Assembly: GCA_016699795.1 (NCBI GenBank) | Contig: CP065011.1 | Coordinates: forward strand, 290,474 to 354,473 | Direction of reading: 5' to 3' | From: Candidatus Moraniibacteriota bacterium | Lineage (GTDB): Bacteria > Patescibacteriota > Minisyncoccia > Moranbacterales > GCA-2747515 | DNA length: 64,000 nt | Shown here: piece after piece, positions 8,948 through 38,703 of the stretch | Layout of the letters: each line of letters starts with the position of its first letter | How positions within the stretch are numbered: position 1 is the first letter of the stretch | The notes under the pieces: model-generated | What the model was told of the DNA's origin: nothing | Databases searched by the model: none | What the model saw: the letters and a program-made list of their open reading frames with translations, nothing else | Position numbers and translations under genes: made by a program

Positions 8948-11329
8948 CTATTTTTTTACCTTTACTCCTGAAAGTTTTTCGAGATCTTCGAAAAGAATTT
9001 CCCTCACAGCATCAACTTCTTTCCCGGACAAAGTTCGGTCTACAGATCCGAAGACCAAATGATATGCCATACTTTTCCCCTCTTTACTCTCATATAGGTC
9101 AAAGAGTTCTAGAGATCGTAAAAGTTTTTTCGCACTTTTTTGTATAGTTTCTTGAATAATTTTCGCTGTAATTTTTGGAGAAGTTACGAGAAGAGAAATA
9201 TCCCTCATGACACCTGGAAATTTATCCAAAGGAGAATATTTTTCTTGTACATTTTCCCTACATTTGAAAATCGAATCAAAATCAAATCGAGCCAGAGAAG
9301 TAGATACAGGAATTTTCCAAAGCTTTGCAAGATAAGGATGAATCATTCCTACATAACCAATAGTCTTTCCAAAAATTTGCACTTTTGCACTTTGTGATGG
9401 GTGGAAATAAGAGCCTCCTTCGTTTTTCTTCAAAGATTCAAATTCCGTTTCAGAAAAAAATAATTTTTGAGAAAGAGCTTGGATATCCCCCTTGAGAACG
9501 AAAAATCTTCGAGCATTTTCTTCTTTTTTTGTTGTCGAAGAAATCATACCGAATTGAAAAATTTCACAAACACTCGAATCCGATTTTTTCGTATACACTT
9601 TTCCAGCCTCAAACAAAGAAAGCGTGTCGAAACGACGAATGTTTTCTCGAAGAGAACGCATCATATTTACCAATATATCAGAACGAAAAAGTTCTTGATC
9701 AGGACTCATAGGATTGGCAAGTGAGAAATGATTTTCCTCGGGAAGTAAGAATGTTTTTGCAGTTTTTTGCGAATAAAAAGAATATGTTTTTATTTCATCA
9801 TATCCCATGCTTATACAAATATCTTCAATATGTCGTTTTAATTTCAAGGAAGTATTTCTTTCTCCGATTTGAAGAGAAACTTTGGGTGCTACGGCATCAA
9901 TTTTTTCATATCCATAGATTCGTCCTATTTCCTCTATAAGATCCTCTTCATGAGAAATATCTCTTCTTCGTGTTGGAATATGAACCAAGAAAATTTCTTT
10001 TGTTTTTTCTTCCAAAGAAAATCCCAAAGAAAGAAGAATCTTTCGAATTTCCTCTTTTTCTTTTTTAATCCCAAGAAGTCGCTCTACTTGAGCAATTTGA
10101 AGTTCCACCGTTTTAGAAAGTGAAACCTGTGGATACTTGTCACAAACACCCATTATTTTGGCACCTGCATATTCTTTGAAAAGTTCTAAAGCTCTCGATA
10201 CAGCAATAGAGGCTCCATTGGGGTCAATATCACGTTCAAATCGATAAGAACTTTCTGTATCTAACTTATGAAAAATTCTACTTTTTCTTATGGATACAGG
10301 ATGAAACCATGCTCCCTCAAGAAATACTGAAGTTGTATTTTCATCTGTTGCCGAATTTTTTCCACCCATAATACCTGCAAGAGCAAGAATTTCAGTTTTA
10401 TTGGCAATTACAATATCGTTTTGAGAAAGCTCTTTTTTTGATCCATCAAGAAGCTCGAGTGATTCTCCTTCTTTTGCATTTCGAACAAAAAGAGAAGATC
10501 CTGAAATTTTTGCATCAAAAGCATGAAGGGGTTGCCCTGTTTCAAGCATAACATAATTTGTTATGTCCGTAGCAATATTAATACTTTTAATACCACAAAT
10601 AGAAAGACGTGATTGCATCCACGAAGGAGTTGGGGTATCATTTTTTATTTCATAAAGAAGTGCCCCGATATAACGATTGCATCTTTCTTTATTTTCAATT
10701 TCTACAGAAATATTTTTTTCCGAAATCGAAGGTAGCTCATATTTTTCATTATCGAAACGCAAGGTTGTTTTCAAAATACAAGATAATTCTCGGGCGACTC
10801 CAATATGACTCAAAGCATCATGACCACGGCTGGCAAGAATATCGAGTTCAATACTGTCATCTCCTTTTTCAAAAATATCACAAAGCTTTGTCCCCAAAGG
10901 TATAGTTTTGTCCAAAAGAAAAATTCCACTATGATCCTCTCCCAAGCCAAGCTCGTCTTCAGCGCAAAGCATTCCCTCAGATTCAATTCCTCGAATCTTT
11001 GATTTTTTTATACAGAGTCCATGAGGAAGTTCTGTTCCTATAGTAGCAACAGGAACGCTATCGCCAATGGAAATATTATGAGCGCCACACACAATAGAAA
11101 GAATTGTTTTTTCTTGCTGATCAAGAGCAACTTTGGTCAATTGTAGTGTATCAGCATTTGGATGCGAAGAAATCTCAAGAATTTTTCCCACTATCACACC
11201 TTCATGCATACCAGGATTTTTTTCAATACTTTCAACTTCAAAACTATGACGCGTGAAAAGTTCCGCCATTTGTTCGACGGTTATGTTTGTCATTGCTAAT
11301 TCATTGAGCCACGATACAGAATATTTCAT
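8948..11329 (-). CDS. pheT: Phenylalanine--tRNA ligase beta subunit
   Basis: N-terminal tRNA-binding domain VGKILEISSHPNADTLQLTKV, then B3/4 and B5 regions, 793 aa. It sits immediately upstream of pheS. Confidence 0.9.
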   Translation of the reverse strand: MKYSVSWLNELAMTNITVEQMAELFTRHSFEVESIEKNPGMHEGVIVGKILEISSHPNADTLQLTKVALDQQEKTILSIVCGAHNISIGDSVPVATIGTELPHGLCIKKSKIRGIESEGMLCAEDELGLGEDHSGIFLLDKTIPLGTKLCDIFEKGDDSIELDILASRGHDALSHIGVARELSCILKTTLRFDNEKYELPSISEKNISVEIENKERCNRYIGALLYEIKNDTPTPSWMQSRLSICGIKSINIATDITNYVMLETGQPLHAFDAKISGSSLFVRNAKEGESLELLDGSKKELSQNDIVIANKTEILALAGIMGGKNSATDENTTSVFLEGAWFHPVSIRKSRIFHKLDTESSYRFERDIDPNGASIAVSRALELFKEYAGAKIMGVCDKYPQVSLSKTVELQIAQVERLLGIKKEKEEIRKILLSLGFSLEEKTKEIFLVHIPTRRRDISHEEDLIEEIGRIYGYEKIDAVAPKVSLQIGERNTSLKLKRHIEDICISMGYDEIKTYSFYSQKTAKTFLLPEENHFSLANPMSPDQELFRSDILVNMMRSLRENIRRFDTLSLFEAGKVYTKKSDSSVCEIFQFGMISSTTKKEENARRFFVLKGDIQALSQKLFFSETEFESLKKNEGGSYFHPSQSAKVQIFGKTIGYVGMIHPYLAKLWKIPVSTSLARFDFDSIFKCRENVQEKYSPLDKFPGVMRDISLLVTSPKITAKIIQETIQKSAKKLLRSLELFDLYESKEGKSMAYHLVFGSVDRTLSGKEVDAVREILFEDLEKLSGVKVKK

Positions 11330-11468
11330 ACATTCGATTATTATCTATTTTGAACAACTACTTTCAAGAATTCATTTTACTCTATGAGAATTCTTTATTC
11401 CTTCGATCCTTATTATCTTTTTACAGAAATGGAGAAATTTTCTTTTCTATTTCCACTATTACACTTCT

Positions 11469-12491
11469 TTAAAATTGTCGTATAAATCTCAAATCTCCGC
11501 TATGAAACAAACGAATATCATCGATTTTATATTTCATCATGGCTAACCGTTCTACACCAAATCCCCAAGCAAAACCTGTATATCTTCCTCGTTCATATCC
11601 AGCAGAAACAAACACATTTTGATGAACCATTCCAGCGCCACCTACTTCAATCCAGCCAGATTTTTTACAAACACTACAACCAGAGCCTTTGCACACAGTA
11701 CAACTAATATCAAACTCAAAACTTGGCTCAGTAAAAGGAAAATAACTCGGTCTGAGTCGGAGAGTAATATCTTTTTCAAAAAATGTTGAGAAGAAATCTT
11801 GAGCTATAGCCTTAAAATGAGAAACGTGTATATTATCCCCCACTACAAGCGCCTCAAATTGATGAAATGTATGTTCATGAGAAGCATCCGTTGCCTCATT
11901 ACGAAAGATTTTTCCTGGCACAATAATTCGAAATGGTGGAGTATGTTTCTCCATATAGCGAACCTGTACCGCTGATGTTTGTGTTCTCGGAAGAAGTGCA
12001 TTTCCTTTTTCATCTTTCTCTTTCATCCAAAAGGCATCTTGCATATCTCGCGCTGGGTGATCTTTCGGGATATTAAGTGCATCAAAATTATAAAGTTCTT
12101 GTTCAATTTCTGGACCTTCTGCAACCTCGAAACCCAAAGAAAGAAAAATATCTTCGATAGATCGCAGTGTCTTTGTAATAGGATGCAAATGACCAAGTAT
12201 TCTCTTTTCTCCTGGAAGAGTCACATCAATACGTTGAGATTCCCAATCATAAGAATCCTGCTCTTTTTGTTGTATTCTCTTGTCCAAATCAGCCGTTATT
12301 TGTTGCCTCATTGCTTGGAGTTCTGGTCCACATATTCTTTTTTCTTCGGTACTCATTTGTGAAAGTTTTCGAAGTTCTTCGGAAATTTGAGATTTTCTCC
12401 CCAGGTGTTTTGTACGAACACTTTCAAGTTCTATAACTGTTTTCGCGCTATCAGCATCTTTTGCATAATTATCCCACAACGTTTTTTTCAT
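11469..12491 (-). CDS. pheS: Phenylalanine--tRNA ligase alpha subunit
   Basis: Class II aaRS motifs FRNEATDASHEHTFHQFE, PSYFPFTEPSFE and GFAWGFGVERLAMM. Confidence 0.9.
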   Translation of the reverse strand: MKKTLWDNYAKDADSAKTVIELESVRTKHLGRKSQISEELRKLSQMSTEEKRICGPELQAMRQQITADLDKRIQQKEQDSYDWESQRIDVTLPGEKRILGHLHPITKTLRSIEDIFLSLGFEVAEGPEIEQELYNFDALNIPKDHPARDMQDAFWMKEKDEKGNALLPRTQTSAVQVRYMEKHTPPFRIIVPGKIFRNEATDASHEHTFHQFEALVVGDNIHVSHFKAIAQDFFSTFFEKDITLRLRPSYFPFTEPSFEFDISCTVCKGSGCSVCKKSGWIEVGGAGMVHQNVFVSAGYERGRYTGFAWGFGVERLAMMKYKIDDIRLFHSGDLRFIRQF

Positions 12492-12503
12492 ACCTGTTTT
12501 AGT

Positions 12504-13745
12504 TCATTCTTTAGATACATTCAATCGAACAAAATGTTTTTTTCCAATACGAAGAATTTCTCCATTATCCGATAATTCTATCTTCCTTTCCACAAATAAA
12601 CATTTTTCTTCTCCCAAAGAAACACCCCCCTGTTCAATCTTTCTACGAGCATCGCTTTTACTTTCTGCAAATTTATGAGAAACAAGGATATCCATTAAAG
12701 CACTTCCCGAAGCTACTGCAAGAATATCCAATGACTCCGCATTAATATGTTTTTTGGAAAATGTTTCAATAAAATATTCTTTTTCTTTTTCGGCAATTTC
12801 TAAACCATAAAAAATTTTTACAATTTCCTGTGCCAATCGAAGTTTGGCATCACGAAAATTTTCTTTTTCCATAATTTCAGAAATTTCTTTCAAAGATACT
12901 GCCGTACAATGTTTAAAAAGAATCTCTATCATTCCATCACCCTGAGACATTATCTGACCAAACATATTACGACTATCCGCATTCAAAAAAACTCCCGTTC
13001 CCTTACTTTTAGACATAAGTTCTCCTGTTTGAGGATCCTCCATAAGAGTCACAGCAACAACAAATTTTTCTTTATTTTTGCATTTTTTAAGTAGCGTTCT
13101 ACCAGAAAGAGCATTAAAAATCTGATCTGTACCACATAATTCAACATCCACATCCAAAACAACACTGTCATACCCTTGCATCAAGGGATAAAGAAATTCA
13201 TGGAGAAAAACAGGGTCTCCTTTTTGCATACGTTTTTCAAACATATCTCTTTCCAGCATTTGTTGAACAGTAAAATTTGAAGCTAGTCCGATAACTTCAT
13301 CAAATCGCAGTTGAGAGAGCCAGTCAGAATTATAACGAATGCAAGGAGGATTTTCTTCTGTTTCAAAATCCATAAGAGGAATTATCTGTTTTTTCCAAGA
13401 TTCAACATTTTCTTTTACCTCTTCTTTTGTTAATTGTTTTCGTTTCAATGATCCTCCTGTAGGATCTCCTATCATAGCAGTAAAATCTCCAAAAAGAAGA
13501 ATTACTTCATGACCAAGACGACGAAATTTTTCTAAAAGCATAATATTCTTTGCATGCGAAAGGTGCAAAGTTGAAGATGTTGCATCAAAACCGATATAAA
13601 ATTTTAATTTTTCCTCCAAAAGACGTTTACGAAATAACTCTTCAGAAGGTAAAATTTCAACGATAGTTCCTCGAGCAAAGATTTCATCAATACTAGCCTT
13701 TTTTTCTTCTTGGGTCATACTTCTTTTATAGAAAATTACACACAT
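12504..13745 (-). CDS. tyrS: Tyrosine--tRNA ligase (start likely 13718, MTQEEKK)
   Basis: Class I signature GFDATSSTLHLSH, a KMSKS-like LMSKSKGTG, and a C-terminal S4 domain SDARRKIEQGGVSL. Confidence 0.8.
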   Translation of the reverse strand: MCVIFYKRSMTQEEKKASIDEIFARGTIVEILPSEELFRKRLLEEKLKFYIGFDATSSTLHLSHAKNIMLLEKFRRLGHEVILLFGDFTAMIGDPTGGSLKRKQLTKEEVKENVESWKKQIIPLMDFETEENPPCIRYNSDWLSQLRFDEVIGLASNFTVQQMLERDMFEKRMQKGDPVFLHEFLYPLMQGYDSVVLDVDVELCGTDQIFNALSGRTLLKKCKNKEKFVVAVTLMEDPQTGELMSKSKGTGVFLNADSRNMFGQIMSQGDGMIEILFKHCTAVSLKEISEIMEKENFRDAKLRLAQEIVKIFYGLEIAEKEKEYFIETFSKKHINAESLDILAVASGSALMDILVSHKFAESKSDARRKIEQGGVSLGEEKCLFVERKIELSDNGEILRIGKKHFVRLNVSKE

Positions 13746-19532: not shown

Positions 19533-21527
19533 CTACATTGTCTGTAGATCGTATGTATATGATGTGGTTTCCATCAGAGAGATTGGTGAGGTGCAGGTGA
19601 ATGATTCTTCTTGTTCTTCAAAGAGAGAATCGTTTGAGGTGCATGGAGTCCATGATCCTGAGAGAGAGTCGAGTTGATACTCTACGTTTTGGATAGTTCC
19701 ATCAGTATCTTTTGTTGTTCCGGTAAGAATAAGAGTGGAATCATTAGTAAGAGGAGGGAGAGGGTTAAGAGTGAGGGAGGGATAGGTGAGGTCTATGGTG
19801 AAGGTGAGAGATTGTGTTGTTTCATTTTGAGAAAGAGCATTGTCTTTGACTCGTATATATACAGTATGAGTTCCTTCTTGAAATTCTTCTGGGGTACAAG
19901 AGAAGATTTCTGAAGATGAATCAAAGAGAGAATCATCTGGAGTACAGGGAGTCCATTCTCCTTCTGTGGAGTCTACTTGGTAGTGTACTTGGTATATATC
20001 AGAAAGTTCATCTATGGTTGTTCCTGTGATGGAGATGGTTGTGTCTGAAGTTGGAGAAGAGATGGGAGTAAGAGTGAGGGAGGGAGGGAGGATGTCAGGG
20101 TCGGTGAAGGAGGCGAGGTTGAGATAGGAAGAGTCATTGTTTATGGAGTTAAAGGAGCCTCCTGCAAGGAGGATGGAGTTGGAGAGAGCGAGGGAATAAA
20201 TGGTACTATTCACGTTCGGATTAAAATCAGGATCAAGCACCCCTGTCAAAACATTGACTTTAGCAAGGCGATTTCTGGTTTGACCTCCGACTGTAGTGAA
20301 ATCTCCTCCGAGGTAGAGATCGGGGCCGGAAGTCAGAAGTGATCGAACGGCATTATCCACATTCGGATTAAAGTTCTCATCCAATACTCCTGTTGTGGTA
20401 TTGACTTTGGCAAGGTGATTGCGGGTTTGACCTCCGACCATAGTGAAGTCTCCTCCCGCATAAAGATCAGATCCGGAGAGGGCGAGAGAGAGAATATAAC
20501 TATTCGCATTTGGATTAAAACTCTCATCCAGTATTCCTGTTGTGGCATTGACTTTGGCAAGACGATTTCGGGTTTGACCTCCGACCGTAGTGAAGTATCC
20601 TCCAAGGTAGAGATCAGAGCCGGAGAGGACCAGGGAATAAACCCGATTATTCACATTCGGATCAAAACTCTCGTCAAGTGCTCCTGTAGTAGCGTTAAGT
20701 TTAGCAAGATCACTTCGATCATAACCTCCTATAAAGTAACTAAACTGGCCTCCTACATAAAGACTAGATCCAGAAAGAACTAAAGAAAAAACATCATCCG
20801 TTATAGTACTCTCAGGATTAAAGTTTGTATCTATTACTCCCGTATCGGCATTGACTTTAGCTAAAAAACTTCTTGATTGTCCTCCGATGCTATAAAATTC
20901 TCCTCCTACATAGAGGTTAGATCCAGAAAGCACAATCGCATTAATAGTATCATCCGCATCAGGATTAAAATTCTCATCCAATGCTCCTGTAATAGCATTC
21001 ACTTTAGCGAGACTATTTCGGATTTGACCTCCGACTGTGGTAAACCGTCCTCCGAGATAAATATTAGATCCAGATAAAAGTAAAGAGTAAACACCACCAC
21101 CATCTGTATTTGGATTGAAATTAGGATCTACTGTACCATCAGAAAGGATATGAGCAACATTGACGGTTTCTACATTTCCTACTTTGGTAAAAGATCCTCC
21201 GATATACCAACCTCCTGATCCATCGGAAAGAGAGGTTCGGACAGTACCATTTACTTTAGGAAACGTTACATCCATTTGATTGGTTGTAGTATCAATTTTT
21301 ACACCATTTCCTGTATAAGGTCCTATTTGAGTAAAAATTCCTCCCAAATAAACATTTCCCTCTCCGTCAGGAATCATAACGCTTACTGATCCACCTGGAA
21401 CACTCTCCCAAGCAGGATTCAATTCCAACTCCCCTGCATGAGCAGAATATGAAAGAAAAAAGAAAACAAAGAACATTCCGAAAAGTGTGGGGAGAAAATG
21501 TGATTTTTTGTAAGAGAGGATTCTCAT
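19533..21527 (-). CDS. Secreted beta-propeller-repeat surface protein (N-terminal, intact-frame part)
   Basis: Signal peptide, then 7-8 tandem ~48-aa repeats SGSxLYxGGxFTxVGGQxRNxLAKVNxxTGxLDxxFNP (delta-60/beta-propeller-like), then Ig-like domains. The 3' end is broken by frameshifts. Confidence 0.7.
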   Translation of the reverse strand: MRILSYKKSHFLPTLFGMFFVFFFLSYSAHAGELELNPAWESVPGGSVSVMIPDGEGNVYLGGIFTQIGPYTGNGVKIDTTTNQMDVTFPKVNGTVRTSLSDGSGGWYIGGSFTKVGNVETVNVAHILSDGTVDPNFNPNTDGGGVYSLLLSGSNIYLGGRFTTVGGQIRNSLAKVNAITGALDENFNPDADDTINAIVLSGSNLYVGGEFYSIGGQSRSFLAKVNADTGVIDTNFNPESTITDDVFSLVLSGSSLYVGGQFSYFIGGYDRSDLAKLNATTGALDESFDPNVNNRVYSLVLSGSDLYLGGYFTTVGGQTRNRLAKVNATTGILDESFNPNANSYILSLALSGSDLYAGGDFTMVGGQTRNHLAKVNTTTGVLDENFNPNVDNAVRSLLTSGPDLYLGGDFTTVGGQTRNRLAKVNVLTGVLDPDFNPNVNSTIYSLALSNSILLAGGSFNSINNDSSYLNLASFTDPDILPPSLTLTPISSPTSDTTISITGTTIDELSDIYQVHYQVDSTEGEWTPCTPDDSLFDSSSEIFSCTPEEFQEGTHTVYIRVKDNALSQNETTQSLTFTIDLTYPSLTLNPLPPLTNDSTLILTGTTKDTDGTIQNVEYQLDSLSGSWTPCTSNDSLFEEQEESFTCTSPISLMETTSYTYDLQTM

Positions 21528-22343: not shown

Positions 22344-25300
22344 TTATTTTTCCACCTTTTTTATCGTTAAAATGACTGTCCAATCATTCACAGTAATTTC
22401 CTTTTCTGCATCAGCATTTTCTATCCTACCAGAGATAACCTCTTTTGCCAAAGTTTCTTTGGCAATAAGTGATGCTCCAAAAAGAGAAAAAACTTCTTCC
22501 GCTCCAACATATCCCAAATGAATACGATTTTCTACGTCATATTTTGCTTGATTTCGCATTTCCTGAATAACGCGAATAATCGTTCTTGCGAGGCCTTCAA
22601 GCTTTAGCTCTGGAGTAATGTTTGTATCAAGTTCTACATCGAAACATTTTTCGTCTTCTTTGCAGATCACTTTTTTTACATTCAATTCTTCTTTGATAAT
22701 TTTTTTATATTGACTGGAAGAAATAATTACAGGAAGAGTTACTGAAGCAAGTGGTCTTCGAACTTCAATACCAGCTTCTGCACGTTTTTGTAAGCCTTTG
22801 GAAATATATTCTCGCGCTAAATCCATATTTTGCAAAACCTCCTCATCAATATTTTCATCCTTTGTTTGAGGATAATCTTCCAAATGTACTGATTCTTTTT
22901 TCGTTAAGTTTCGATATATTTCTTCAGAAATAAATGGCGCAAATGGAGCTAAAAGTTTAGAAAATTCTACAAGAACATAGTAAAGAGTTTCGTAGGCCTC
23001 TTTTTTGTCCGCATCATTTTCACTTTTCCAGAAACGTTTTCGACTTCTTCGTATATACCAATTAGAAAGATCGTCCACAAATGGAGCAAAATATCTCGTA
23101 GCCCGTGCCAATTCATAAAGCTCCATAGCTTCATTCACTTTCTTTGTCAGTACCCAAAATTTAGAAAGTAACCATCTGTCCAAAACATGCTTTTTTTTCT
23201 TTGTTACAGGAGTAATAGAAATATCTTGCGGAAGAAAACCATCCACATTGGCATACATAGTAAAAAAAGCATACGTATTTTGAAGCATTCGAAACATTCC
23301 TCGAAAAATTTCCGCTATATCCTTCTCCGAAAAATTTAAATTTTCTGCCATAACTACGGGCGAGCCCAAAAGATACATTCGAAGCGTATCCGCACCATAT
23401 TTTTCAATAATACCAGAAGGATCTGGATAATTTTTTAATTTTTTGGACATTTTTTTTCCATCCTGAGCTAAAACAATTCCATTTACAATAACATGAGAAA
23501 ATGCTCTTTTCTCTTCTATTCCAGAGGCTAAAACATGCAAATAATAAAACCATGCGCGCGTTTGATCCACGCCTTCGGCAATAAAATCTGCGGGAAATGT
23601 TTCTTGAAATTTCTTTTCATTTTCAAAGGGATAATGAAGTTGAGCATAGGGCATTGATCCACTATCAAACCAGGTATCCAAAACATCAGGAATCCGATTC
23701 ATCTTTCCTCCACATTCACAAGGAAGAGTTACTTCATCAATATATGGACGATGAATATCCACCTTCTTGGAAAAAATAGAGCGAATCTGTGCATTCTGAG
23801 CATGCCATAATTTTTGTTCTGAAAGATCTTCTTTATTTGAAAGTATCGCTTCAATAGCCAAAAGAGAATCTTGATGACCCACAAGTACAATAGTTTTTCC
23901 TGAATATTTAGCATTGATATCTTTGATAAGTAATCGGGCGCGTTTAAGAATATCTTCAAACGTTTCCACTTGATCTGTATTTTCTTTCTGCGAAGAAACA
24001 TTAGGATATTTTTTCCGAATATCTTGTACTTTTTTTCCTTCAAAAACTCCGAATGAAGTTTCTCGAAGGCGATCATCTTCGATAATATCAGATACTTCTT
24101 TTTCCCCTATTGTAGCGATAATCTCAGCTGTTTGACGAGCTCTTGTAAGTGGCGAAGTTATAATTATATCTACGAATTTTGTCGAGAGTTCTTTTCCGGC
24201 TTCTTCTACTTGCTGTATTCCATTTTGAGTGAGTGTATTTTTTGGATCTCCTTGAGAGTCAAGAAATAATTCAACATTACTCAATGCTTGAGCATGCCGA
24301 ACAAGATAGAGACGATTTACTCCCCCAAGTTCAGAGGCTATTTCCATAACAGAAGAAATGACTCGCGTTTTTGAGCAGTCTTCACATTTCCAAATCGGCA
24401 TCACACTTGCCCAAAATCGTTGTCGGCTTATAGACCAATCTCTAGCCCCAGAAAGCCAATTACCAAATCTTCCTTCTTTAATATGTTCTGGAACCCAATG
24501 AATATCCTGAGCATTGGTAAGACATTTTTCTTTAATCTTTTCTACAGCAACAAACCAACTTCCTGTCGCATAATTAAGAAGGGCCGTATCACAACGCCAA
24601 CAATGAGGATAGCTATGTTCGTATTTAGCATGAGAAAAATAACCTCCGCTTTTTTGCAAAGCTTTGAGGAAAAAAATATCAATTTCTCGGACATCTTTTG
24701 GATTTCCCTTAGCACGGAGTTTTATATCTTGCCCTGAAAACTCACCAAAACCATCAAGGATTATTCCATCTTTTCCTACGTGCTGAACGAAAGGAAGATT
24801 GTTTGTCTTTCCTATATTCATATCATCTTCTCCAAAAGCTGGAGCGATATGAACAACACCAGCTCCTTCGTCCGTAGTAACAAAATCAGCGTGATAAATC
24901 TTCCATCCATTTTCTTTATTTTTCAATTCAGTATTCGAAAAAGGGAAAATAGGACGATATGATTTCCCCAAAAGTTTTTCTCCAAAAAATTCTTCTTTCA
25001 TTTCATATTCAAAACCTCCCAAAACTTGAGATAATCGATTTTTGGCTATGATAAAAGTTTCTCCGTCAAAGGCTTTTATTTGTACACGACAATATTCAAT
25101 ATCTTTACCCACTGCAAGGGCTACATTTCCTAGTATCGTCCATGGCGTAGTAGTCCACGCTAAAATGTATGTTTGAGGCTCATCTTCAAGTTCGAATTTA
25201 ACGGTTACAGAAAGATCTTTGATATCTAAATATCCTTCAGCAACTTCTGATTGTGACAAGGTTGTCTCACATCGAGGACAAATATGCATAGATCGGTATC

Positions 25301-25844
25301 CCTCATAAATATAACCCTTCTTCCAAAGCTCTCCAAAAACCCACCAAACACTCTCCATATATTCCGGGTCCATCGTTCGATAGGGATCATCCATATCTGC
25401 CCACCGGCCAAAGAGATCGATAATTTTCTCCCACTCTGAAACATATTTAAAAACATTATCACGACAACGTGCATTAAACGCTTCAATACCGAGTTGTTCT
25501 ATGTCCTTCTTACTCTTTGAACCAAGTTCTTTTTCAACTATGTTTTCAATAGGAAGTCCATGACAATCCCAACCCCATCGTCGCTCCACATACTTCCCTC
25601 GCATAGTCCAATATCTTGGAATAGTGTCTTTTATAACACTTGCTACTAAATGACCATAATGAGGTGTTCCTGTAGCAAAAGGTGGTCCATCAAAAAAAGA
25701 ATATCGCTCATTCTCTCTTCGGTGAGCAATAGTTTTTTTAAAAATATTATTTTCCTTCCAATATTTTTGAACCTCTTTTTCTCGGCTGAGCACGGACTTC
25801 CGTGAATCAACCAAACTAAATAAAGGTTTTTGTTCTGTATTCAT
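22344..25844 (-). CDS. ileS: Isoleucine--tRNA ligase, type 2, with an inserted histidine-phosphatase domain
   Basis: HYGH and KMSKKL class I motifs, a CP1 editing region and WSISRQRFW. Between WKCEDC and HRPYID sits a ~190-aa insert (aa ~510-690, nt ~23775-24320) carrying LVRHAQ, TSPLTRARQTA and LVGHQDSL, the branch-1 histidine phosphatase signatures. Confidence 0.9.
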   Translation of the reverse strand: MNTEQKPLFSLVDSRKSVLSREKEVQKYWKENNIFKKTIAHRRENERYSFFDGPPFATGTPHYGHLVASVIKDTIPRYWTMRGKYVERRWGWDCHGLPIENIVEKELGSKSKKDIEQLGIEAFNARCRDNVFKYVSEWEKIIDLFGRWADMDDPYRTMDPEYMESVWWVFGELWKKGYIYEGYRSMHICPRCETTLSQSEVAEGYLDIKDLSVTVKFELEDEPQTYILAWTTTPWTILGNVALAVGKDIEYCRVQIKAFDGETFIIAKNRLSQVLGGFEYEMKEEFFGEKLLGKSYRPIFPFSNTELKNKENGWKIYHADFVTTDEGAGVVHIAPAFGEDDMNIGKTNNLPFVQHVGKDGIILDGFGEFSGQDIKLRAKGNPKDVREIDIFFLKALQKSGGYFSHAKYEHSYPHCWRCDTALLNYATGSWFVAVEKIKEKCLTNAQDIHWVPEHIKEGRFGNWLSGARDWSISRQRFWASVMPIWKCEDCSKTRVISSVMEIASELGGVNRLYLVRHAQALSNVELFLDSQGDPKNTLTQNGIQQVEEAGKELSTKFVDIIITSPLTRARQTAEIIATIGEKEVSDIIEDDRLRETSFGVFEGKKVQDIRKKYPNVSSQKENTDQVETFEDILKRARLLIKDINAKYSGKTIVLVGHQDSLLAIEAILSNKEDLSEQKLWHAQNAQIRSIFSKKVDIHRPYIDEVTLPCECGGKMNRIPDVLDTWFDSGSMPYAQLHYPFENEKKFQETFPADFIAEGVDQTRAWFYYLHVLASGIEEKRAFSHVIVNGIVLAQDGKKMSKKLKNYPDPSGIIEKYGADTLRMYLLGSPVVMAENLNFSEKDIAEIFRGMFRMLQNTYAFFTMYANVDGFLPQDISITPVTKKKKHVLDRWLLSKFWVLTKKVNEAMELYELARATRYFAPFVDDLSNWYIRRSRKRFWKSENDADKKEAYETLYYVLVEFSKLLAPFAPFISEEIYRNLTKKESVHLEDYPQTKDENIDEEVLQNMDLAREYISKGLQKRAEAGIEVRRPLASVTLPVIISSSQYKKIIKEELNVKKVICKEDEKCFDVELDTNITPELKLEGLARTIIRVIQEMRNQAKYDVENRIHLGYVGAEEVFSLFGASLIAKETLAKEVISGRIENADAEKEITVNDWTVILTIKKVEK

Positions 25845-25918: not shown

Positions 25919-27112
25919 TTATTTTTTCAAAATATTTTTGTATACTTCCAATGTTTTTTTGGCTGTTTGTTTCCAAGAAAAATTTTTGGCCTGTTGTATT
26001 CCCTTTTGAGCACACTCATGACGAAGTTTTTCATTTTTTACAAAAAGATTCATAGTCTGAGCCATTTCTTGAATATTTCTCGGATCAATGTACGTAACAG
26101 CATCACGAGCAATTTCAGGAATGGACGATGCTTTTGTGGCAATTGTTGGAGTACCTGTAGCAAGTGCCTCTAAAACCGTCGATCCAAAACCCTCATAGAG
26201 TGATGGCATTATGAAAAATTCCGCATTATGAAAAAGTGGTAAAAGATCGTCTCCTACAACATAGCCAGTAAATGCTATGCGAGAAAGAATTCCCAAATCT
26301 TTAGCCACTTGTCGATATTCCTCCGAAAACCAACCACTCTTTCCAGCAACCACCAAGGTAAAATCTTTCGAAACCCCTTTCATTTTCAAAAAAAGTGCGA
26401 ATGCTTCCAAAAGCCTCGTTATATTATTTATCGGAGAAAGTGTTCCAAGAAACAATGCATAAGGAGTAGCAATTTTATGTTTTACTCGAAAATCTGCGCC
26501 ATCTCCGGTAGGTGCTTTAAAAAATCTTTCATCTACACCAGCATAAACCACAGAAATCTTTTTTTTCTTTACACCAAATTTCTCGACTATTTCATCAGAA
26601 AGAAATTGAGAAGCAGAAATAATATGATCACTTTTTTTGACCATATAACGAATGAGCGATTGCTCTCTAATTCTTTGGGGAATAGAATACATTTCTGGAA
26701 AAACAAAAGCTCCTAAGGAATGTATTGTTGTTACACATGCTCCTTTATAAAGAAGAGGAATGCGACTCATTACTGAGGTAGAATGAAGAATATCAAGTTT
26801 TTCTCTCGTAATGGTTGCAAGACCAAGTATTTCACTATATGCCCCTGGAAGATATTTCTTATAATCAGAAAAAGGATAAAAACGAACCGAAACATGAGGA
26901 AGGGAAAATTTCTTAATATCTTTCTCGCGAACACGATAATCAAAAAATAAAACATATTCATTTTTCTTATCTTCTTCTATAAGATGTCTGATAAGCTGAT
27001 ATGTGTAATGACCAGAACCTATCGCATCTCCGTGCTCAGGATTGAGTATGGTTCTTGCATCAATTCCTATTCTCATACGCGTACATTTAAAAAATTCCAA
27101 AGAAACGAACAT
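25919..27112 (-). CDS. Glycosyltransferase family 4 (likely start 27076, MRIGID)
   Basis: EX7E region MPSLYEGFGSTVLEALATGTPTIATKASSIPEI. N-terminal GT-B domain. Confidence 0.75.
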   Translation of the reverse strand: MFVSLEFFKCTRMRIGIDARTILNPEHGDAIGSGHYTYQLIRHLIEEDKKNEYVLFFDYRVREKDIKKFSLPHVSVRFYPFSDYKKYLPGAYSEILGLATITREKLDILHSTSVMSRIPLLYKGACVTTIHSLGAFVFPEMYSIPQRIREQSLIRYMVKKSDHIISASQFLSDEIVEKFGVKKKKISVVYAGVDERFFKAPTGDGADFRVKHKIATPYALFLGTLSPINNITRLLEAFALFLKMKGVSKDFTLVVAGKSGWFSEEYRQVAKDLGILSRIAFTGYVVGDDLLPLFHNAEFFIMPSLYEGFGSTVLEALATGTPTIATKASSIPEIARDAVTYIDPRNIQEMAQTMNLFVKNEKLRHECAQKGIQQAKNFSWKQTAKKTLEVYKNILKK

Positions 27113-37033: not shown

Positions 37034-37573
37034 ATGTATCTCATTATTGGCCTCGGAAATCCTGGAACAAAATATCAAGAAACCAGACATAATGCGGGAT
37101 TTATTTTTTTGGATACCTATATTCAAAATTGGGACTTTCCAAAATTCTCTCTTCATAAAAATTTTTCTGCCGAAACTTCAGAAGGATTTCTTTTGGAGAA
37201 AAAAATTCTTCTCGCAAAACCTCAAACGTATATGAACCTTTCAGGAAAAAGTGTTAAAGCGCTCATAGATTATTACAAAATTAATCTCGAAAACATCCTT
37301 ATTATTCACGATGATAAGGACCTCTCTTTAGGAGAAATACGCACAACTCTAGAATCCTCCAGTGCTGGACATCGAGGTGTTCAAAATATTTTTGACATTC
37401 TTGGTACGAAAGCGATAAAACGCATACGAATTGGTATTGGTCCAGTTCAAGAGAATGTTCCAACAGATGCTTTTGTTTTGGGACAATTCACCTCACAAGA
37501 AAAAAAGAGTCTTCTTGATCATACTGAAAAAATTCAAGAAATTGTTTTTTCTTTTTTGGAAAAAAAATTCTAA
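37034..37573 (+). CDS. pth: Peptidyl-tRNA hydrolase
   Basis: MYLIIGLGNPGTKYQETRHNAGF and the overall 179-aa Pth architecture. Confidence 0.85.
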   Translation: MYLIIGLGNPGTKYQETRHNAGFIFLDTYIQNWDFPKFSLHKNFSAETSEGFLLEKKILLAKPQTYMNLSGKSVKALIDYYKINLENILIIHDDKDLSLGEIRTTLESSSAGHRGVQNIFDILGTKAIKRIRIGIGPVQENVPTDAFVLGQFTSQEKKSLLDHTEKIQEIVFSFLEKKF

Positions 37574-37659
37574 AAATAGAAAAGCTTTAGAAAAAACCTT
37601 TTTTGTTTTCAATATTTTCTTCTATTGTACTATTCCCTTTTTAAAAGAAAAAGAAGAGA

Positions 37660-38703
37660 TTATTCTTTATCTATTTCTTCTTTTTTCTCTTTTGTATATT
37701 CTTCGGCAATAGAACTAATAAGTTTTCGAATATCCCCCATAGCACCATCTTCTAAAATAGAGCAAATAAGAACTCGAGGATTTTTTCTTTTCAATGATCG
37801 GACTACTTTTTTTACTTCTTCTATTGTTTGTTCATCAGATCGAGAAACCAAAACCCATTCAGGTTTTTCCAAAAGCGTTGGATTGTAAATACCCAATTCT
37901 TTTCGAATATTTTTATAATCCAATAACGGATGCTCACTTGTAGCATTTACAAGGTGAAATAAAACACGAGTTCTTTCAATATGTCTCAAAAATTTATGTC
38001 CCAAACCTTTACCCTCTGAAGCACCTTCGATAAGGCCTGGAATATCTGCCAATAAAGTTCCGTAATACATTCCCAAATGAGGCTCCAGCGTAGTGAAATT
38101 ATAATTTCCTACTTTACTTGATGATCGGGTAAGTGCATTCATTAGACTCGATTTTCCAACATTAGGATAACCAATAAAACCAATATCCGCTATAAGCTTT
38201 AGTTCGATATCTAAAGTTGCTGCTTCCCCTACTTTTCCAAGAGTTGCTTTATCCGGACTAGTTTTTCGGCTTGATCGAAAATGAAAATTTCCAAAACCTC
38301 CCCTTCCTCCATGAATAACCGTTATTCTTTGATCTACGAATAATATTTCGTATACCTTATTATTTTCTCGATTTCTAGCAACAGTTCCTACTGGAACCCG
38401 AACCAAAACATCTTTTCCATTATGTCCTGTTTTTACATTCTGACCGCCATTCCTTCCATCTTCAGCAAATATAGGTTTCTTGGATCGAAAAGCTCGAAGA
38501 GCTCCAATATCTGCGACACCCACGAGAACAACATCTCCCCCTCGACCACCATCTCCTCCCGTTGGTCCATACGTTTTCATCGTTCCAGAAAATTGGACAA
38601 CTCCATCTCCACCCTTTCCGGCAGAAACTTTGAGAGTAATTTCATCAATAAGCATATTCGTAAAAAAAAGAGAATTAACAAGGAACTCTACCACGAAGCC
38701 CAA
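37660..38703 (-). CDS. obg: GTPase Obg (likely start 38655, MLIDEITLKV)
   Basis: Obg-fold Gly-rich N-terminus GKGGDGVVQF...GGDGGRGGDVVL, and a G domain GFIGYPNVGKSSL...DIPGLIEGAS. Confidence 0.85.
   Translation of the reverse strand: MGFVVEFLVNSLFFTNMLIDEITLKVSAGKGGDGVVQFSGTMKTYGPTGGDGGRGGDVVLVGVADIGALRAFRSKKPIFAEDGRNGGQNVKTGHNGKDVLVRVPVGTVARNRENNKVYEILFVDQRITVIHGGRGGFGNFHFRSSRKTSPDKATLGKVGEAATLDIELKLIADIGFIGYPNVGKSSLMNALTRSSSKVGNYNFTTLEPHLGMYYGTLLADIPGLIEGASEGKGLGHKFLRHIERTRVLFHLVNATSEHPLLDYKNIRKELGIYNPTLLEKPEWVLVSRSDEQTIEEVKKVVRSLKRKNPRVLICSILEDGAMGDIRKLISSIAEEYTKEKKEEIDKE

What the first reader, a model, noticed from the sequence alone, without database searches (positions are those of the whole stretch)
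23775..24320. Histidine-phosphatase (PGAM-like) domain inserted inside the catalytic core of IleRS
Canonical IleRS proteins have only a short linker between WxISRQRxWG...CEDC and HRPYIDEVTLPC...WFDSGS. Here that position holds about 190 aa with the full branch-1 histidine phosphatase signature: LVRHAQ (RHG-type catalytic His), TSPLTRARQTAEII, and LVGHQDSL (the second His). The rest of IleRS looks intact (HYGH, KMSKKL, CP1). An in-frame, apparently catalytically competent phosphatase embedded in an aminoacyl-tRNA synthetase is highly unusual. It may add a new activity such as hydrolysis of a phosphorylated intermediate, a regulatory nucleotide or a tRNA end.
Basis: partly seen in the sequence, partly recalled or inferred. 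Interest (0 to 1): 0.7.

Follow-up and report, generated by a model that had tools for sequence, protein, structure and literature searches.

The report
Active phosphatase domain embedded inside IleRS
The isoleucyl-tRNA synthetase of this ultra-small (CPR/Patescibacteria) bacterium really does carry a complete, apparently active histidine-phosphatase domain spliced into a zinc-knuckle loop of its catalytic core; the same module recurs in IleRS, ValRS, ArgRS and TsaC across this radiation and appears undescribed, but what it dephosphorylates is unknown.

Summary
One uninterrupted 1166-aa ORF (window 22344-25844, minus strand) is a bona fide type-2 IleRS (TIGR00392, 883 bits against a cut-off of 621). 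It carries a 189-aa His_Phos_1 domain (aa 507-695, window 23760-24326, E=8e-34). In T. thermophilus IleRS the same position is an 8-residue linker between the two halves of the second zinc knuckle.

It is not a chimera. 56 of the 120 closest protein clusters and 42 of 80 species-representative ileS loci, all CPR, have the insert. The catalytic set R516/H517/N523/R568/E595/H657 is invariant or nearly so.

New findings:
- The nearest free-standing copies sit in the argS-ileS block (7 of 7 metagenome loci plus L038), so the separate gene and the embedded domain are alternative states.
- The same subfamily is inserted in ValRS at three sites (up to four matched stretches in one protein), fused to the ArgRS C-terminus, and fused to TsaC.
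- NUDIX and P-loop-kinase-like insertions occur in related IleRS and LeuRS proteins.

Most likely it is an autonomous PhoE-like small-molecule phosphomonoesterase riding on an intact housekeeping IleRS. The substrate is unknown. No publication was found. It is a new variant of a known kind; interest is about 0.6.

The parts
22344..25844 (-). ileS gene: type-2 (eukaryote/Thermus-like) isoleucyl-tRNA synthetase with internal phosphatase domain, 1166 aa plus stop
   Evidence: single ORF; TIGR00392 883 bits (cut-off 621); C-terminal DUF5915; best PDB relatives 1ILE, 9W01, 8C8V
24327..25844 (-). IleRS aa 1-506: first half of the Rossmann fold, CP1 editing domain, and first half of the second zinc knuckle
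23760..24326 (-). Inserted His_Phos_1 (PhoE-like branch-1 histidine phosphatase) domain, aa 507-695
   Evidence: Pfam E=7.8e-34; boundaries; AF2 pLDDT 95.5 alone and 10-residue block means of 79-96 across the insert in the full-length model; Foldseek TM 0.79-0.82 to PhoE, PspA and HFP
22347..23759 (-). IleRS aa 696-1166: second half of the zinc knuckle, second half of the Rossmann fold with KMSKK, anticodon-binding domain, DUF5915
24291..24299 (-). Phosphatase catalytic motif R516-H517-A518 (RHG type; H517 is the predicted phospho-acceptor)
   Evidence: R and H invariant in 56 of 56 relatives, G in 54 of 56; 86 of 86 ungapped embedded IleRS copies at the 50%-representative level
24276..24278 (-). 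N523, phosphate-pocket Asn
   Evidence: 54 of 56
24141..24143 (-). R568, second phosphate-binding Arg
   Evidence: 56 of 56
24060..24062 (-). E595, predicted general acid/base
   Evidence: 55 of 56
23874..23876 (-). H657, second catalytic His
   Evidence: 56 of 56; 88 of 88
24375..24386 (-). Zinc-knuckle half 1, C487-x-x-C490, immediately upstream of the insert
   Evidence: Invariant in alignment A2; aligns to the VCQAC motif of 1ILE
23712..23720 (-). Zinc-knuckle half 2, C709-x-C711, immediately downstream of the insert
   Evidence: Invariant; aligns to the ACAC motif of 1ILE
25650..25661 (-). HIGH motif (H62-Y-G-H65) of the synthetic site
   Evidence: Invariant
23439..23453 (-). KMSKS motif (K798-M-S-K-K802)
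   Evidence: K798 and K801 invariant, M799 nearly invariant
25137..25154 (-). CP1 editing-site motif T231-T-T-P-W-T236
   Evidence: Invariant

Best explanation
The gene encodes the organism's housekeeping IleRS, intact in its synthetic, editing and zinc-binding motifs. A complete, catalytically competent PhoE-like branch-1 histidine phosphatase has been spliced into the loop between the two halves of its second zinc knuckle, making a bifunctional polypeptide. The phosphatase most likely acts as an autonomous phosphomonoesterase: nucleophilic H517 forms a phospho-histidine intermediate, R516/R568/N523/H657 hold the phosphate, and E595 acts as general acid. Its most probable target is a small phosphorylated metabolite or nucleotide, not a precisely positioned tRNA end. 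It is genetically tied to ileS. In some CPR lineages it is a separate, tightly packed gene in the argS-HP-ileS block; in others it sits inside IleRS, sometimes twice. These states probably interconverted by local fusion or fission. My working guess for the substrate class is a phosphate-bearing by-product or salvage intermediate of adenylate-forming enzymes (AMP or another nucleoside phosphate, possibly PPi). Shown: the domain identity, its boundaries, the intact catalytic residues, recurrence, synteny and the alternative states. Inferred: that it is catalytically active and acts independently. Guessed: the substrate.
For: Identity and integrity. Fold: AF2 pLDDT 95.5, and the closest solved structures are all short small-molecule phosphatases (riboflavin HFP 9MMH, PspA 4IJ5/6, PhoE 1H2E, mycobacterial hydrolases, TIGAR) at TM 0.79-0.82 and 20-28% identity. 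Selection on catalysis: R/H/R/H are invariant in 56 of 56 relatives and essentially invariant in embedded copies at the 50%-representative level, although the domain averages only 39% identity against 65% for the IleRS backbone. Housekeeping locus: the same GT4-ileS arrangement occurs in the orthologous insert-free locus L001 and insert-bearing locus L003. Alternative states: free HP genes lie in the argS/ileS block in L004, L005/6, L007, L008, L009, L092, L093 and L038, with intergenic gaps of 1-10 nt or overlaps and the same domain ends as the embedded copy. Autonomy rather than fixed geometry: three ValRS insertion sites, a second IleRS site, tandem copies, a C-terminal fusion to ArgRS and a fusion to TsaC in four clusters; no IleRS backbone column discriminates insert-bearing from insert-free proteins; embedded domains are not basic, with median pI about 7. 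All four partner enzymes form acyl-adenylates from ATP (established biochemistry of aaRS and TsaC).
Against: No substrate evidence exists. The domain fails every curated equivalog cut-off (dPGM_arch, CobC, PspA, SixA, GpmB), so no specificity can be transferred. The short linkers (about 4-5 residues on each side) and the confident junctions in the full-length model (pTM 0.78) could equally mean a fixed, functionally meaningful orientation relative to the synthetic site. The model coordinates could not be inspected, so active-site orientation is unknown. The adenylate by-product idea rests partly on the TsaC and ArgRS fusions, but CPR TsaC is fused to many unrelated enzymes (Ogt, TruB, 2H phosphoesterase, NUDIX, GNAT, glycosylase), so fusion partners in CPR are weak functional evidence. 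The ileS adjacency of free copies may reflect inherited synteny, or origin by fission, rather than selection for coupling. Hydrolysing AMP would seem wasteful for organisms generally held to depend on nucleotide salvage (general knowledge, not tested here).
Confidence: 0.45

Rival explanations
1. Pure gene-economy fusion. The phosphatase is an ordinary housekeeping enzyme with no mechanistic relation to aminoacylation. In streamlined CPR genomes, small enzymes are frequently fused onto or into essential translation genes, which guarantees constitutive co-expression. The insertion persists because the zinc-knuckle loop tolerates it.
For: CPR TsaC is fused to at least six unrelated domain types. 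IleRS and LeuRS also carry NUDIX, a P-loop-kinase-like segment and unassigned insertions. The phosphatase occupies several different sites and partners. Presence and absence are interleaved among close relatives, even within proteins labelled Moranbacteria/Moraniibacteriota. No backbone co-adaptation is seen. This overlaps the best explanation and differs only in denying any substrate link.
Against: The association is strikingly specific. Of the 149 best-scoring representatives of this subfamily, 69 are IleRS, 7 ValRS, 1 ArgRS and 1 TsaC, and every free copy examined lies beside ileS or argS. Repeated independent insertions into two paralogous editing synthetases suggest more than chance.
Confidence: 0.2
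2. Built-in repair or defence module. The phosphatase, with NUDIX where present, removes inactivating phosphate groups from the tRNA 3' end (for example the 3'-pyrophosphate added by toxSAS/CapRel-type enzymes, or the 3'-phosphate left by nucleases), or from the synthetase's own active-site loop (HipA/HipT-type kinases target class-I synthetases).
For: tRNA CCA-end pyrophosphorylation that blocks aminoacylation is established (bioRxiv 10.1101/2021.04.30.441581; PMC11245113). The insertion lies in the catalytic core of class-Ia enzymes that handle A76. NUDIX domains co-occur in or next to the same synthetases, which would allow a two-step pyrophosphate-to-phosphate-to-hydroxyl conversion. The short linkers suggest a fixed position. 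A NUDIX plus RHG-phosphatase pairing exists in mycobacterial MutT1, which acts on phosphoproteins (PMC11784022, PMC12407098). The HipA-to-GltX and HipT-to-TrpS targets are from my own knowledge and were not checked here.
Against: The free-standing form, the ArgRS C-terminal fusion (the anticodon end of that enzyme, by general knowledge of ArgRS structure) and the TsaC fusion do not place the domain near a tRNA 3' end. Multiple insertion sites argue against a required geometry. The domain is not basic. No PADLOC defence match was found. No branch-1 histidine phosphatase acting on RNA ends is known to me.
Confidence: 0.13
3. It is the missing phosphoglycerate mutase of these lineages: a short, archaeal-type cofactor-dependent PGM embedded in IleRS that supplies lower glycolysis.
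For: The best NCBIfam match of the insert is the short archaeal dPGM family NF038349 (97-101 bits). Jaffe et al. [quoted passage not shown] Many insert-bearing loci are labelled Paceibacteria/Parcubacteria.
Against: The score is far below the family cut-off (225). TIGR01258 pgm_1 gives 35.7 against 81.7. From my knowledge of E. coli GpmA, the dPGM substrate-binding features (the FTGW segment, ERHYG with R90/Y92, K100) have no counterpart in the consensus RLRExxxGxxEG. The closest structures are phosphatases rather than mutases, which align with lower TM-scores relative to the target. Lineages said to have PGM (Peregrinibacteria, Dojkabacteria/WS6) also carry the insert.
Confidence: 0.1
4. Dedicated product-removal enzyme. 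The domain hydrolyses PPi, or AMP, at the site of adenylate formation, pulling the activation reaction forward in organisms with limited pyrophosphatase capacity.
For: All four fusion partners (IleRS, ValRS, ArgRS, TsaC) release PPi and then AMP (established biochemistry). Tandem and multiple copies would increase capacity.
Against: Branch-1 histidine phosphatases are typically phosphomonoesterases, and PPi hydrolysis by this branch is not established to my knowledge. Other aaRS classes in the window (TyrRS, PheRS, MetRS) carry no such domain. Many CPR IleRSs lack it. This is folded into the best explanation as the preferred substrate guess and is listed separately because it is separately testable.
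Confidence: 0.1
5. Assembly chimera, frameshifted gene pair, or decaying non-catalytic relic.
For: None found.
Against: The reading frame is continuous. An identical protein sits on a 1.19-Mb contig, and there are homologues at 49-75% identity from NCBI, JGI, ENA and Logan assemblies. 42 species-representative genomes have the insert. Catalytic residues are invariant. The model is confident.
Confidence: 0.01

Closest known systems
Type-2 (Thermus/eukaryote-like) isoleucyl-tRNA synthetase, e.g. T. thermophilus IleRS (PDB 1ILE/1JZQ) and Priestia megaterium IleRS2 (8C8V)
   Same: Full-length homology. HIGH, KMSKS, CP1 editing motifs, both Cys4 zinc sites and the C-terminal DUF5915 domain are all present. 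TIGR00392 scores above its cut-off.
   Different: A 189-aa phosphatase domain replaces the 8-residue linker (1ILE residues 478-485) between the two halves of the second zinc knuckle. No solved IleRS has an insertion there.
PhoE / PspA / HFP-type short broad-specificity histidine phosphatases (PDB 1H2E, 4IJ5, 9MMH; Pfam PF00300)
   Same: Same fold (TM 0.79-0.82), same catalytic constellation (RHG, Asn, Arg, Glu, His) and similar size, about 190-210 aa.
   Different: Only 20-28% identical. It fails every NCBIfam equivalog cut-off. It is embedded in, or encoded beside, class-I synthetases. No substrate can be inferred.
NCBIfam NF040702 'isoleucine--tRNA ligase, N-acetyltransferase domain-containing'
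   Same: A curated precedent for an IleRS that carries an extra enzymatic domain.
   Different: The extra domain there is a GNAT, not a phosphatase. The query scores 309 bits against a cut-off of 1999, so it is not a member. The position of the GNAT domain was not examined.
Mycobacterial MutT1 (NUDIX N-terminal domain plus RHG histidine-phosphatase C-terminal domain; PMC11784022, PMC12407098)
   Same: A natural pairing of NUDIX and branch-1 histidine-phosphatase modules. Here, NUDIX and HP co-occur in one IleRS (P0022) and as neighbouring genes (L005).
   Different: MutT1 is a stand-alone two-domain protein unrelated to synthetases, and its phosphatase domain's own activity is unresolved. The embedded NUDIX domains here do not reach the MutT1 family cut-off.
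Bifunctional RNase H / acid phosphatase (NCBIfam NF005567, Rv2228c type) and PFK-2/FBPase-2
   Same: Examples of a branch-1 histidine phosphatase fused to another catalytic domain. P0017 adds a P-loop-kinase-like segment in the same IleRS subdomain.
   Different: Those are end-to-end fusions, whereas here the domain is inserted within a loop of the host's catalytic core. Scores are below cut-off (77.7-81.5 against 326). The P0017 kinase-like segment is a separate insertion about 25 residues upstream, not a cassette.

Membership tests
Isoleucyl-tRNA synthetase (TIGR00392) | Whole-protein score above the curated equivalog cut-off | tested here: met
   883 bits against 621.4
Isoleucyl-tRNA synthetase (TIGR00392) | Class-I signature motifs HIGH and KMSKS | tested here: met
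   HYGH 62-65 and KMSKK 798-802; invariant or nearly invariant across 65 relatives
Isoleucyl-tRNA synthetase (TIGR00392) | CP1 editing domain with the Thr-rich motif and conserved His/Asp | tested here: met
   W230-TTTPWT-236, H332 and D341 are invariant
Isoleucyl-tRNA synthetase (TIGR00392) | Aminoacylation of tRNA-Ile and editing of Val | not testable with these tools
   Needs biochemistry
Isoleucyl-tRNA synthetase (TIGR00392) | It is the only (housekeeping) ileS of the genome | tested here: inconclusive
   It occupies the orthologous GT4-ileS locus, but only 64 kb of the 1.19-Mb genome is visible
Histidine phosphatase superfamily, branch 1 (PF00300) | Score above the Pfam gathering threshold | tested here: met
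   117.5 bits in context and 122.4 bits alone, against 21.7
Histidine phosphatase superfamily, branch 1 (PF00300) | Catalytic core: RHG His, two Arg, a second His, and an acidic proton donor | tested here: met
   R516, H517 (RHA here), R568, H657 and E595 are present and 55-56 of 56 conserved
Histidine phosphatase superfamily, branch 1 (PF00300) | Alpha/beta/alpha fold of the superfamily | tested here: met
   AF2 pLDDT 95.5; Foldseek probability 1.00 and TM 0.79-0.82 to PhoE, PspA and HFP
Histidine phosphatase superfamily, branch 1 (PF00300) | Phosphatase activity through a phospho-histidine intermediate | not testable with these tools
   Needs an enzyme assay and an H517A control
Cofactor-dependent phosphoglycerate mutase (NF038349 dPGM_arch; TIGR01258 pgm_1) | Score above the curated cut-off | tested here: not met
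   97-101 against 225, and 35.7 against 81.7
Alpha-ribazole phosphatase CobC (TIGR03162) | Score above the curated cut-off | tested here: not met
   79.5-84.2 against 162.9
Phosphoserine phosphatase PspA (NF045917) | Score above the curated cut-off | tested here: not met
   66.9-70.6 against 350
Phosphohistidine phosphatase SixA (TIGR00249) | Score above the curated cut-off | tested here: not met
   39.9 against 74.5, N-terminal third only
IleRS with GNAT domain (NF040702) | Score above the curated cut-off | tested here: not met
   309 against 1999; no GNAT match in Pfam
Mupirocin-resistance IleRS MupA/MupB (NF000257/NF000258) | Score above the curated cut-off | tested here: not met
   About 765 against 1900; the similarity only reflects type-2 IleRS ancestry
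Intein or other mobile insertion | Hint/homing-endonuclease domains, flanking repeats, or compositional break | tested here: not met
   Only His_Phos_1 matches in the insert; no boundary repeats; GC 0.33-0.38, like its surroundings
Catalogued anti-phage defence components (PADLOC) | Match to any PADLOC model | tested here: not met
   No hit for the insert; only a marginal hit (E=4.6e-4) for the free homologue P0156

The most novel reading that the evidence does not exclude
Class-Ia synthetases of CPR bacteria carry built-in 'healing' enzymes. The embedded histidine phosphatase, acting together with the NUDIX domains found in or beside the same IleRS and LeuRS genes, would strip inactivating phosphate or pyrophosphate from the 3'-OH of tRNA A76 (the modification made by toxSAS/CapRel-type effectors), or from the synthetase's own active-site loop. 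The synthetase would then restore its substrate, or itself, before charging. This would be a previously unknown cis-acting layer of translation quality control or counter-defence.
Probability: 0.1. Interest if true: 0.9.

Novelty: new variant of a known kind. Interest (0 to 1): 0.6.

Why it matters
Aminoacyl-tRNA synthetases are among the best-studied enzymes. Additions to bacterial class-I cores are known mainly as editing or RNA-binding modules, not as independent hydrolases with intact active sites. This work shows that a catalytically intact phosphatase has been inserted, repeatedly and at several sites, into IleRS and ValRS across the Candidate Phyla Radiation. It also exists as an alternative stand-alone gene in the argS-ileS block. 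That defines a large family (hundreds of sequence clusters) for which no publication was found, with a clean experimental handle: wild type versus H517A, and embedded versus split forms. If the phosphatase is coupled to aminoacylation, it would be a new kind of synthetase accessory activity. If it is autonomous, it is a striking example of domain-insertion gene economy in ultra-small genomes, and it may account for enzymes scored as 'missing' in CPR metabolic reconstructions. It also matters for annotation: NCBI names the identical protein only 'class I tRNA ligase family protein'.

Tried and rejected
- **Insert-only word-indexed search.** It returned only distant free phosphatases (34% identity or less) and missed the embedded copies. 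The exhaustive profile search superseded it.
- **The search for related loci with the insert alignment.** It failed because no stretch was conserved enough, so I surveyed from the ileS side instead.
- **Exact look-up of P0001.** Not on record, so the window's own wider genome could not be inspected.
- **AFDB Foldseek.** Library unavailable.
- **Monophyly of insert-bearing IleRS.** A backbone-only NJ tree interleaves insert-bearing and insert-free sequences, and no backbone column discriminates them. I rejected 'one clean clade', but NJ on roughly 65%-identical sequences is poorly resolved, so the number of gains and losses stays open. I first thought the flank motif HRPYID marked insert-bearing proteins; it is confined to the query's immediate clade.
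- **Kinase-phosphatase cassette in P0017 (PFK2/FBPase2-like or PNK-like).** Rejected. The kinase-like segment is a separate insertion between the two Cys of the first half-knuckle, about 25 residues upstream, and was seen in a single cluster.
- **RNA-binding electrostatics.** The embedded domains are not basic.
- **Mobile-element signatures.** None found.
- **Defence-system membership.** None found.
- **NUDIX subtype as a substrate clue.** The matches are generic MutT/RppH-like, and none reaches a cut-off.
- **Archaeal tandem form (L090).** No synthetase is nearby, so the aaRS association seems specific to CPR.
- **Literature.** Six full-text searches found no paper describing the architecture.
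Full report
**1.

The region lies inside one uninterrupted 1166-aa ORF on the minus strand (22344..25844). Pfam splits the class-I synthetase catalytic domain around a full His_Phos_1 match (aa 512-688, E=7.8e-34). Anticodon_1 and DUF5915 follow, which is the type-2 IleRS architecture. NCBIfam's ileS equivalog scores 883 bits against a cut-off of 621.

I aligned the protein with its 119 best database relatives. They fall cleanly into two classes across the region: about 74 aa (64 clusters) or about 255-274 aa (55 clusters, plus one with 428 aa). The boundaries are sharp:
- Insert-free: ...SVEELEELSG|(T)DLHKHxVD...
- Query: ...SVMEIASELGG[VNRLYLVRHAQ...IRSIFSKKV]DIHRPYIDE...

The insert is aa 507-695, which is window 23760-24326.

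On T. thermophilus IleRS (1ILE) the flanks align to residues 404-477 and 486-553. The domain therefore replaces an 8-residue linker between the C-x-x-C and C-x-C halves of the second zinc knuckle. None of the solved IleRS structures (Thermus, human, yeast, P. megaterium IleRS2) has anything there.

**2. It is not an artefact.**

- GC content does not change across the boundaries, and no repeats flank them.
- The identical protein is in NCBI on a 1.19-Mb contig of a Candidatus Moraniibacteriota MAG, named only 'class I tRNA ligase family protein'.
- 56 of the 120 closest 90%-identity clusters, from NCBI, JGI, ENA and Logan assemblies, have the same architecture at 49-75% identity.
- In a scan of species-representative genomes, 42 of the 80 best ileS loci carry the phosphatase inside IleRS. 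Eight of those have two copies, mostly genomes labelled Peregrinibacteria/Peribacteria. One locus has it as a separate adjacent gene, 36 lack it, and one is truncated at the critical point.
- All non-CPR genomes in that set lack it (Latescibacterota, Spirochaetaceae, Gemmatimonadaceae, Treponema).
- The top-80 ranking favours insert-bearing genes, so these are not prevalence estimates. Some NCBI organism labels in this set are clearly unreliable.

**3. Both enzymes look functional.**

Across 65 relatives the following IleRS features are invariant: the HIGH motif, the key KMSKS residues (K798, K801), the CP1 editing motifs (TTTPWT, H332, D341), and both Cys4 zinc sites, including C487/C490 and C709/C711 that bracket the insert.

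Within the insert, R516, H517, R568 and H657 are invariant in 56 of 56 relatives. E595 is conserved in 55 of 56 and N523 in 54 of 56. The G of the RHG motif is present in 54 of 56 and is Ala in this sequence. The same holds for the embedded IleRS copies at the 50%-identity representative level. Yet the domain as a whole is only about 39% identical on average, against about 65% for the IleRS backbone. That pattern points to selection on catalysis specifically.

AlphaFold2 models the isolated domain at pLDDT 95.5. The full-length protein models at pLDDT 84 and pTM 0.78, with confident junctions. The nearest solved structures are short small-molecule phosphatases at TM 0.79-0.82 but only 20-28% identity: riboflavin-pathway HFP 9MMH, PspA 4IJ5/6, PhoE 1H2E, mycobacterial hydrolases and TIGAR. 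Every curated functional subfamily (dPGM, CobC, PspA, SixA, GpmB) scores far below its cut-off. The fold and chemistry are therefore assignable, but the substrate is not.

**4. What the wider survey adds.**

A profile of the insert was searched exhaustively against 1.84 billion representatives and found 1,050 at E<=1e-30. The best 149 break down as 69 IleRS, 7 ValRS, 1 ArgRS, 1 TsaC, 38 free-standing (about 190 aa), 32 tandem two-domain proteins and 1 other.

*ValRS.* The ValRS proteins are bona fide (for example P0218 at 1018 bits and P0256 at 948 bits, against a cut-off of 704). They carry the domain at three different sites:
- the loop homologous to the IleRS site, between GHxIPVWY and QDxDTLDTWFSS;
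- just after DTWFSS...STLGWP;
- after EPMISPQWF at the end of CP1.

Up to four phosphatase stretches match in one ValRS-like protein, P0138, three of them near full length.

*IleRS variants.* Some IleRSs have tandem copies in the same loop, or a second site about 180 residues downstream.

*ArgRS and TsaC.* P0267 is an ArgRS with the domain at its C-terminus. P0264 and three further clusters are Sua5/TsaC-phosphatase fusions.

*Free-standing copies.* All seven metagenome loci I could examine lie in the argS/ileS block:
- L004, L007 and L008: argS-HP-ileS directly.
- L009: argS-HP followed by a convergent ileS.
- L092: argS, then several genes, then HP-ileS.
- L093: argS-HP, with the contig too short to see further.
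- L005/6: argS...HP, then two NUDIX genes, then an IleRS with an internal NUDIX domain.

L038 from the genome scan has the same argS-HP-ileS arrangement. Intergenic gaps are 1-10 nt or overlaps. The free proteins end exactly where the embedded domain ends. The surrounding synteny (smpB, infC, rplT ... argS ... ileS ... recO) is the same for the insert-free, insert-bearing and split arrangements examined outside the window. The window shares only the GT4 glycosyltransferase upstream of ileS with L001 and L003.

The separate gene and the embedded domain are therefore alternative states of one locus. They most plausibly interconverted by local fusion or fission. On rough NJ trees, embedded and free copies interleave, and insert-bearing IleRS backbones do not form one clade. 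Both states occur among proteins labelled Moranbacteria/Moraniibacteriota. Repeated gain and loss is likely but has not been rigorously counted.

**5. Mechanism.**

*What is shown.* This is a bifunctional polypeptide made of an intact housekeeping-type IleRS and an intact PhoE-like phosphatase.

*What I infer (about 45%).* The phosphatase acts autonomously as a small-molecule phosphomonoesterase through a phospho-H517 intermediate, and it is tied to ileS genetically rather than geometrically. The reasons are:
- It works as a separate protein in some lineages.
- It tolerates several insertion sites and different partners, including the ArgRS C-terminus, which by general structural knowledge is far from the acceptor end.
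- No IleRS backbone position co-varies with its presence.
- It is not basic.
- Its structural neighbours are metabolite phosphatases.

All four partners form acyl-adenylates, so my preferred guess for the substrate is a nucleotide-type by-product or salvage intermediate (AMP, another nucleoside phosphate, or PPi). This step is conjecture.

*A serious caveat.* CPR TsaC is fused to many unrelated enzymes: most often Ogt, but also TruB, 2H phosphoesterase, NUDIX, GNAT and a DNA glycosylase. CPR IleRS and LeuRS also carry NUDIX, a P-loop-kinase-like segment and unassigned insertions. Fusion partners in this radiation are therefore weak functional evidence, and a pure gene-economy explanation (about 20%) cannot be separated from the best explanation without experiments.

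*Other rivals.*
- **A cis-acting repair or defence function** on the tRNA 3' end or on the synthetase itself (about 13%). It is attractive because toxSAS enzymes pyrophosphorylate the CCA end and because NUDIX co-occurs. It is disfavoured by the free-standing form, the ArgRS and TsaC fusions and the multiple insertion sites.
- **The 'missing PGM' of Parcubacteria** (about 10%; PMC7304191). It is disfavoured by sub-threshold scores and by the absence of dPGM substrate-binding residues.
- **Dedicated PPi/AMP removal** (about 10%).
- **Chimera or relic** is excluded.

**6. Comparison with known systems and novelty.**

The protein is a member of IleRS and its insert is a member of the His_Phos_1 superfamily; the sequence, motif and fold criteria tested here were met. 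It is not a member of any characterised phosphatase subfamily, nor of the curated 'IleRS with GNAT' family, nor of MupA/MupB. The closest conceptual precedents are that GNAT-bearing IleRS, mycobacterial MutT1 (NUDIX plus RHG phosphatase; PMC11784022) and the RNase H/acid phosphatase fusions.

Six full-text searches found no description of a histidine phosphatase (or NUDIX) domain inside a class-I synthetase. The sequences are public and their Pfam hits are precomputed, so this is an unremarked architecture rather than an unseen one.

I rate it a new variant of a known kind, with interest of about 0.6. It is a real, widespread and surprising architecture in a much-studied enzyme family, with clear experiments available. 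It has no demonstrated new mechanism, and there is a plausible mundane explanation.

Noticed in passing
L003:18121-19617 (+), same contig as the insert-bearing IleRS P0004: A LeuRS with a NUDIX domain inserted directly after its editing domain (Pfam tRNA-synt_1_2 at aa 223-387, NUDIX at aa 385-499; the gene runs off the locus).
   Followed up: partly
L005:9033-12563 (+) and P0022 (aa 321-448): IleRS proteins with a NUDIX domain inside the CP1 region. P0022 carries both NUDIX and the phosphatase. In L005 two free NUDIX genes and a free phosphatase gene lie between argS and this IleRS. The NUDIX subtypes are generic MutT/RppH-like and none reaches a cut-off.
   Followed up: partly
P0017 aa ~488-665 (relative of the window protein; single cluster, 75.8-kb contig): A P-loop kinase-like segment (Walker A GPYAAGKT) is inserted between the two cysteines of the first zinc half-knuckle, about 25 residues upstream of the phosphatase. 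Best PDB matches are APS kinase 8A8H at E=8e-5 and dephospho-CoA kinase at E=4e-3. By general knowledge both of those enzymes phosphorylate an adenosine 3'-OH, but the match is weak.
   Followed up: partly
P0218, P0256, P0248, P0183, P0177, P0138, P0194 (ValRS): ValRS proteins carry the same phosphatase subfamily at three distinct insertion sites. P0138 has four matched stretches, three of them near full length. Copies within the multi-copy ValRS proteins cluster together on the NJ domain tree, suggesting duplication within that lineage.
   Followed up: partly
P0267; P0264, P0297-P0299; other hits: There is an ArgRS with a C-terminal phosphatase, and TsaC/Sua5-phosphatase fusions in four clusters. 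CPR TsaC is more often fused to Ogt/MGMT (PF01035), and also to TruB, 2H cyclic phosphodiesterase, NUDIX, GNAT or a methylpurine glycosylase. This points to a general habit of fusing small enzymes onto translation genes.
   Followed up: partly
L024:5941-9789 and L058:3171-7196: These ileS genes are interrupted by in-frame stop codons with the frame preserved. This suggests lineages that read a stop codon as sense (for example UGA=Gly, code 25) rather than pseudogenes. The identity of the stop codons was not checked.
   Followed up: no
L090:6001-7862: In a Woesearchaeota (DPANN archaeon) contig, a tandem two-domain phosphatase of the same subfamily is followed by a third phosphatase gene. No synthetase is nearby, so the link to synthetases appears specific to CPR.
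   Followed up: partly
window 19533-21527 (-), especially 20000-20750: A 664-aa repetitive beta-propeller protein (DUF5122 repeats, internally repeated 'LAKVN..TG.LD..FNP' units) lies in a stretch with GC 0.45-0.47, against about 0.35 for its surroundings.
   Followed up: no
window 38907-46406 (-): A very large ORF (2499 aa, TTG start) that I did not analyse.
   Followed up: no
window 8948-13745, 37034-38703 and 46703-48136: The window is rich in translation genes: PheRS beta and alpha, TyrRS, peptidyl-tRNA hydrolase, Obg, and a compact 477-aa MetRS. None carries a phosphatase or NUDIX insertion. The window has no second His_Phos_1 copy and no Nudix box.
   Followed up: yes
window 25919-27112 (-): The GT4 glycosyltransferase immediately upstream of ileS also matches Pfam 'GT4-conflict' (PF20706, E=9e-9), much more weakly than the ordinary GT1/GT4 families. 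The same gene position is conserved in L001 and L003. It has no PADLOC hit.
   Followed up: partly
L039, L045, L047, L051, L061, L070, L072, L073, L086 (record titles): ileS loci 49-60% identical to this CPR protein are deposited under labels such as 'uncultured Gammaproteobacteria', 'Pseudomonadales' or 'archaeon'. These organism labels look unreliable and were not used for taxonomic conclusions.
   Followed up: no
L080:5971-10086 (candidate division WS6): This IleRS has the phosphatase (weaker match, 59.7 bits) plus an unassigned insertion of about 150 aa inside the CP1 region with no Pfam match.
   Followed up: no
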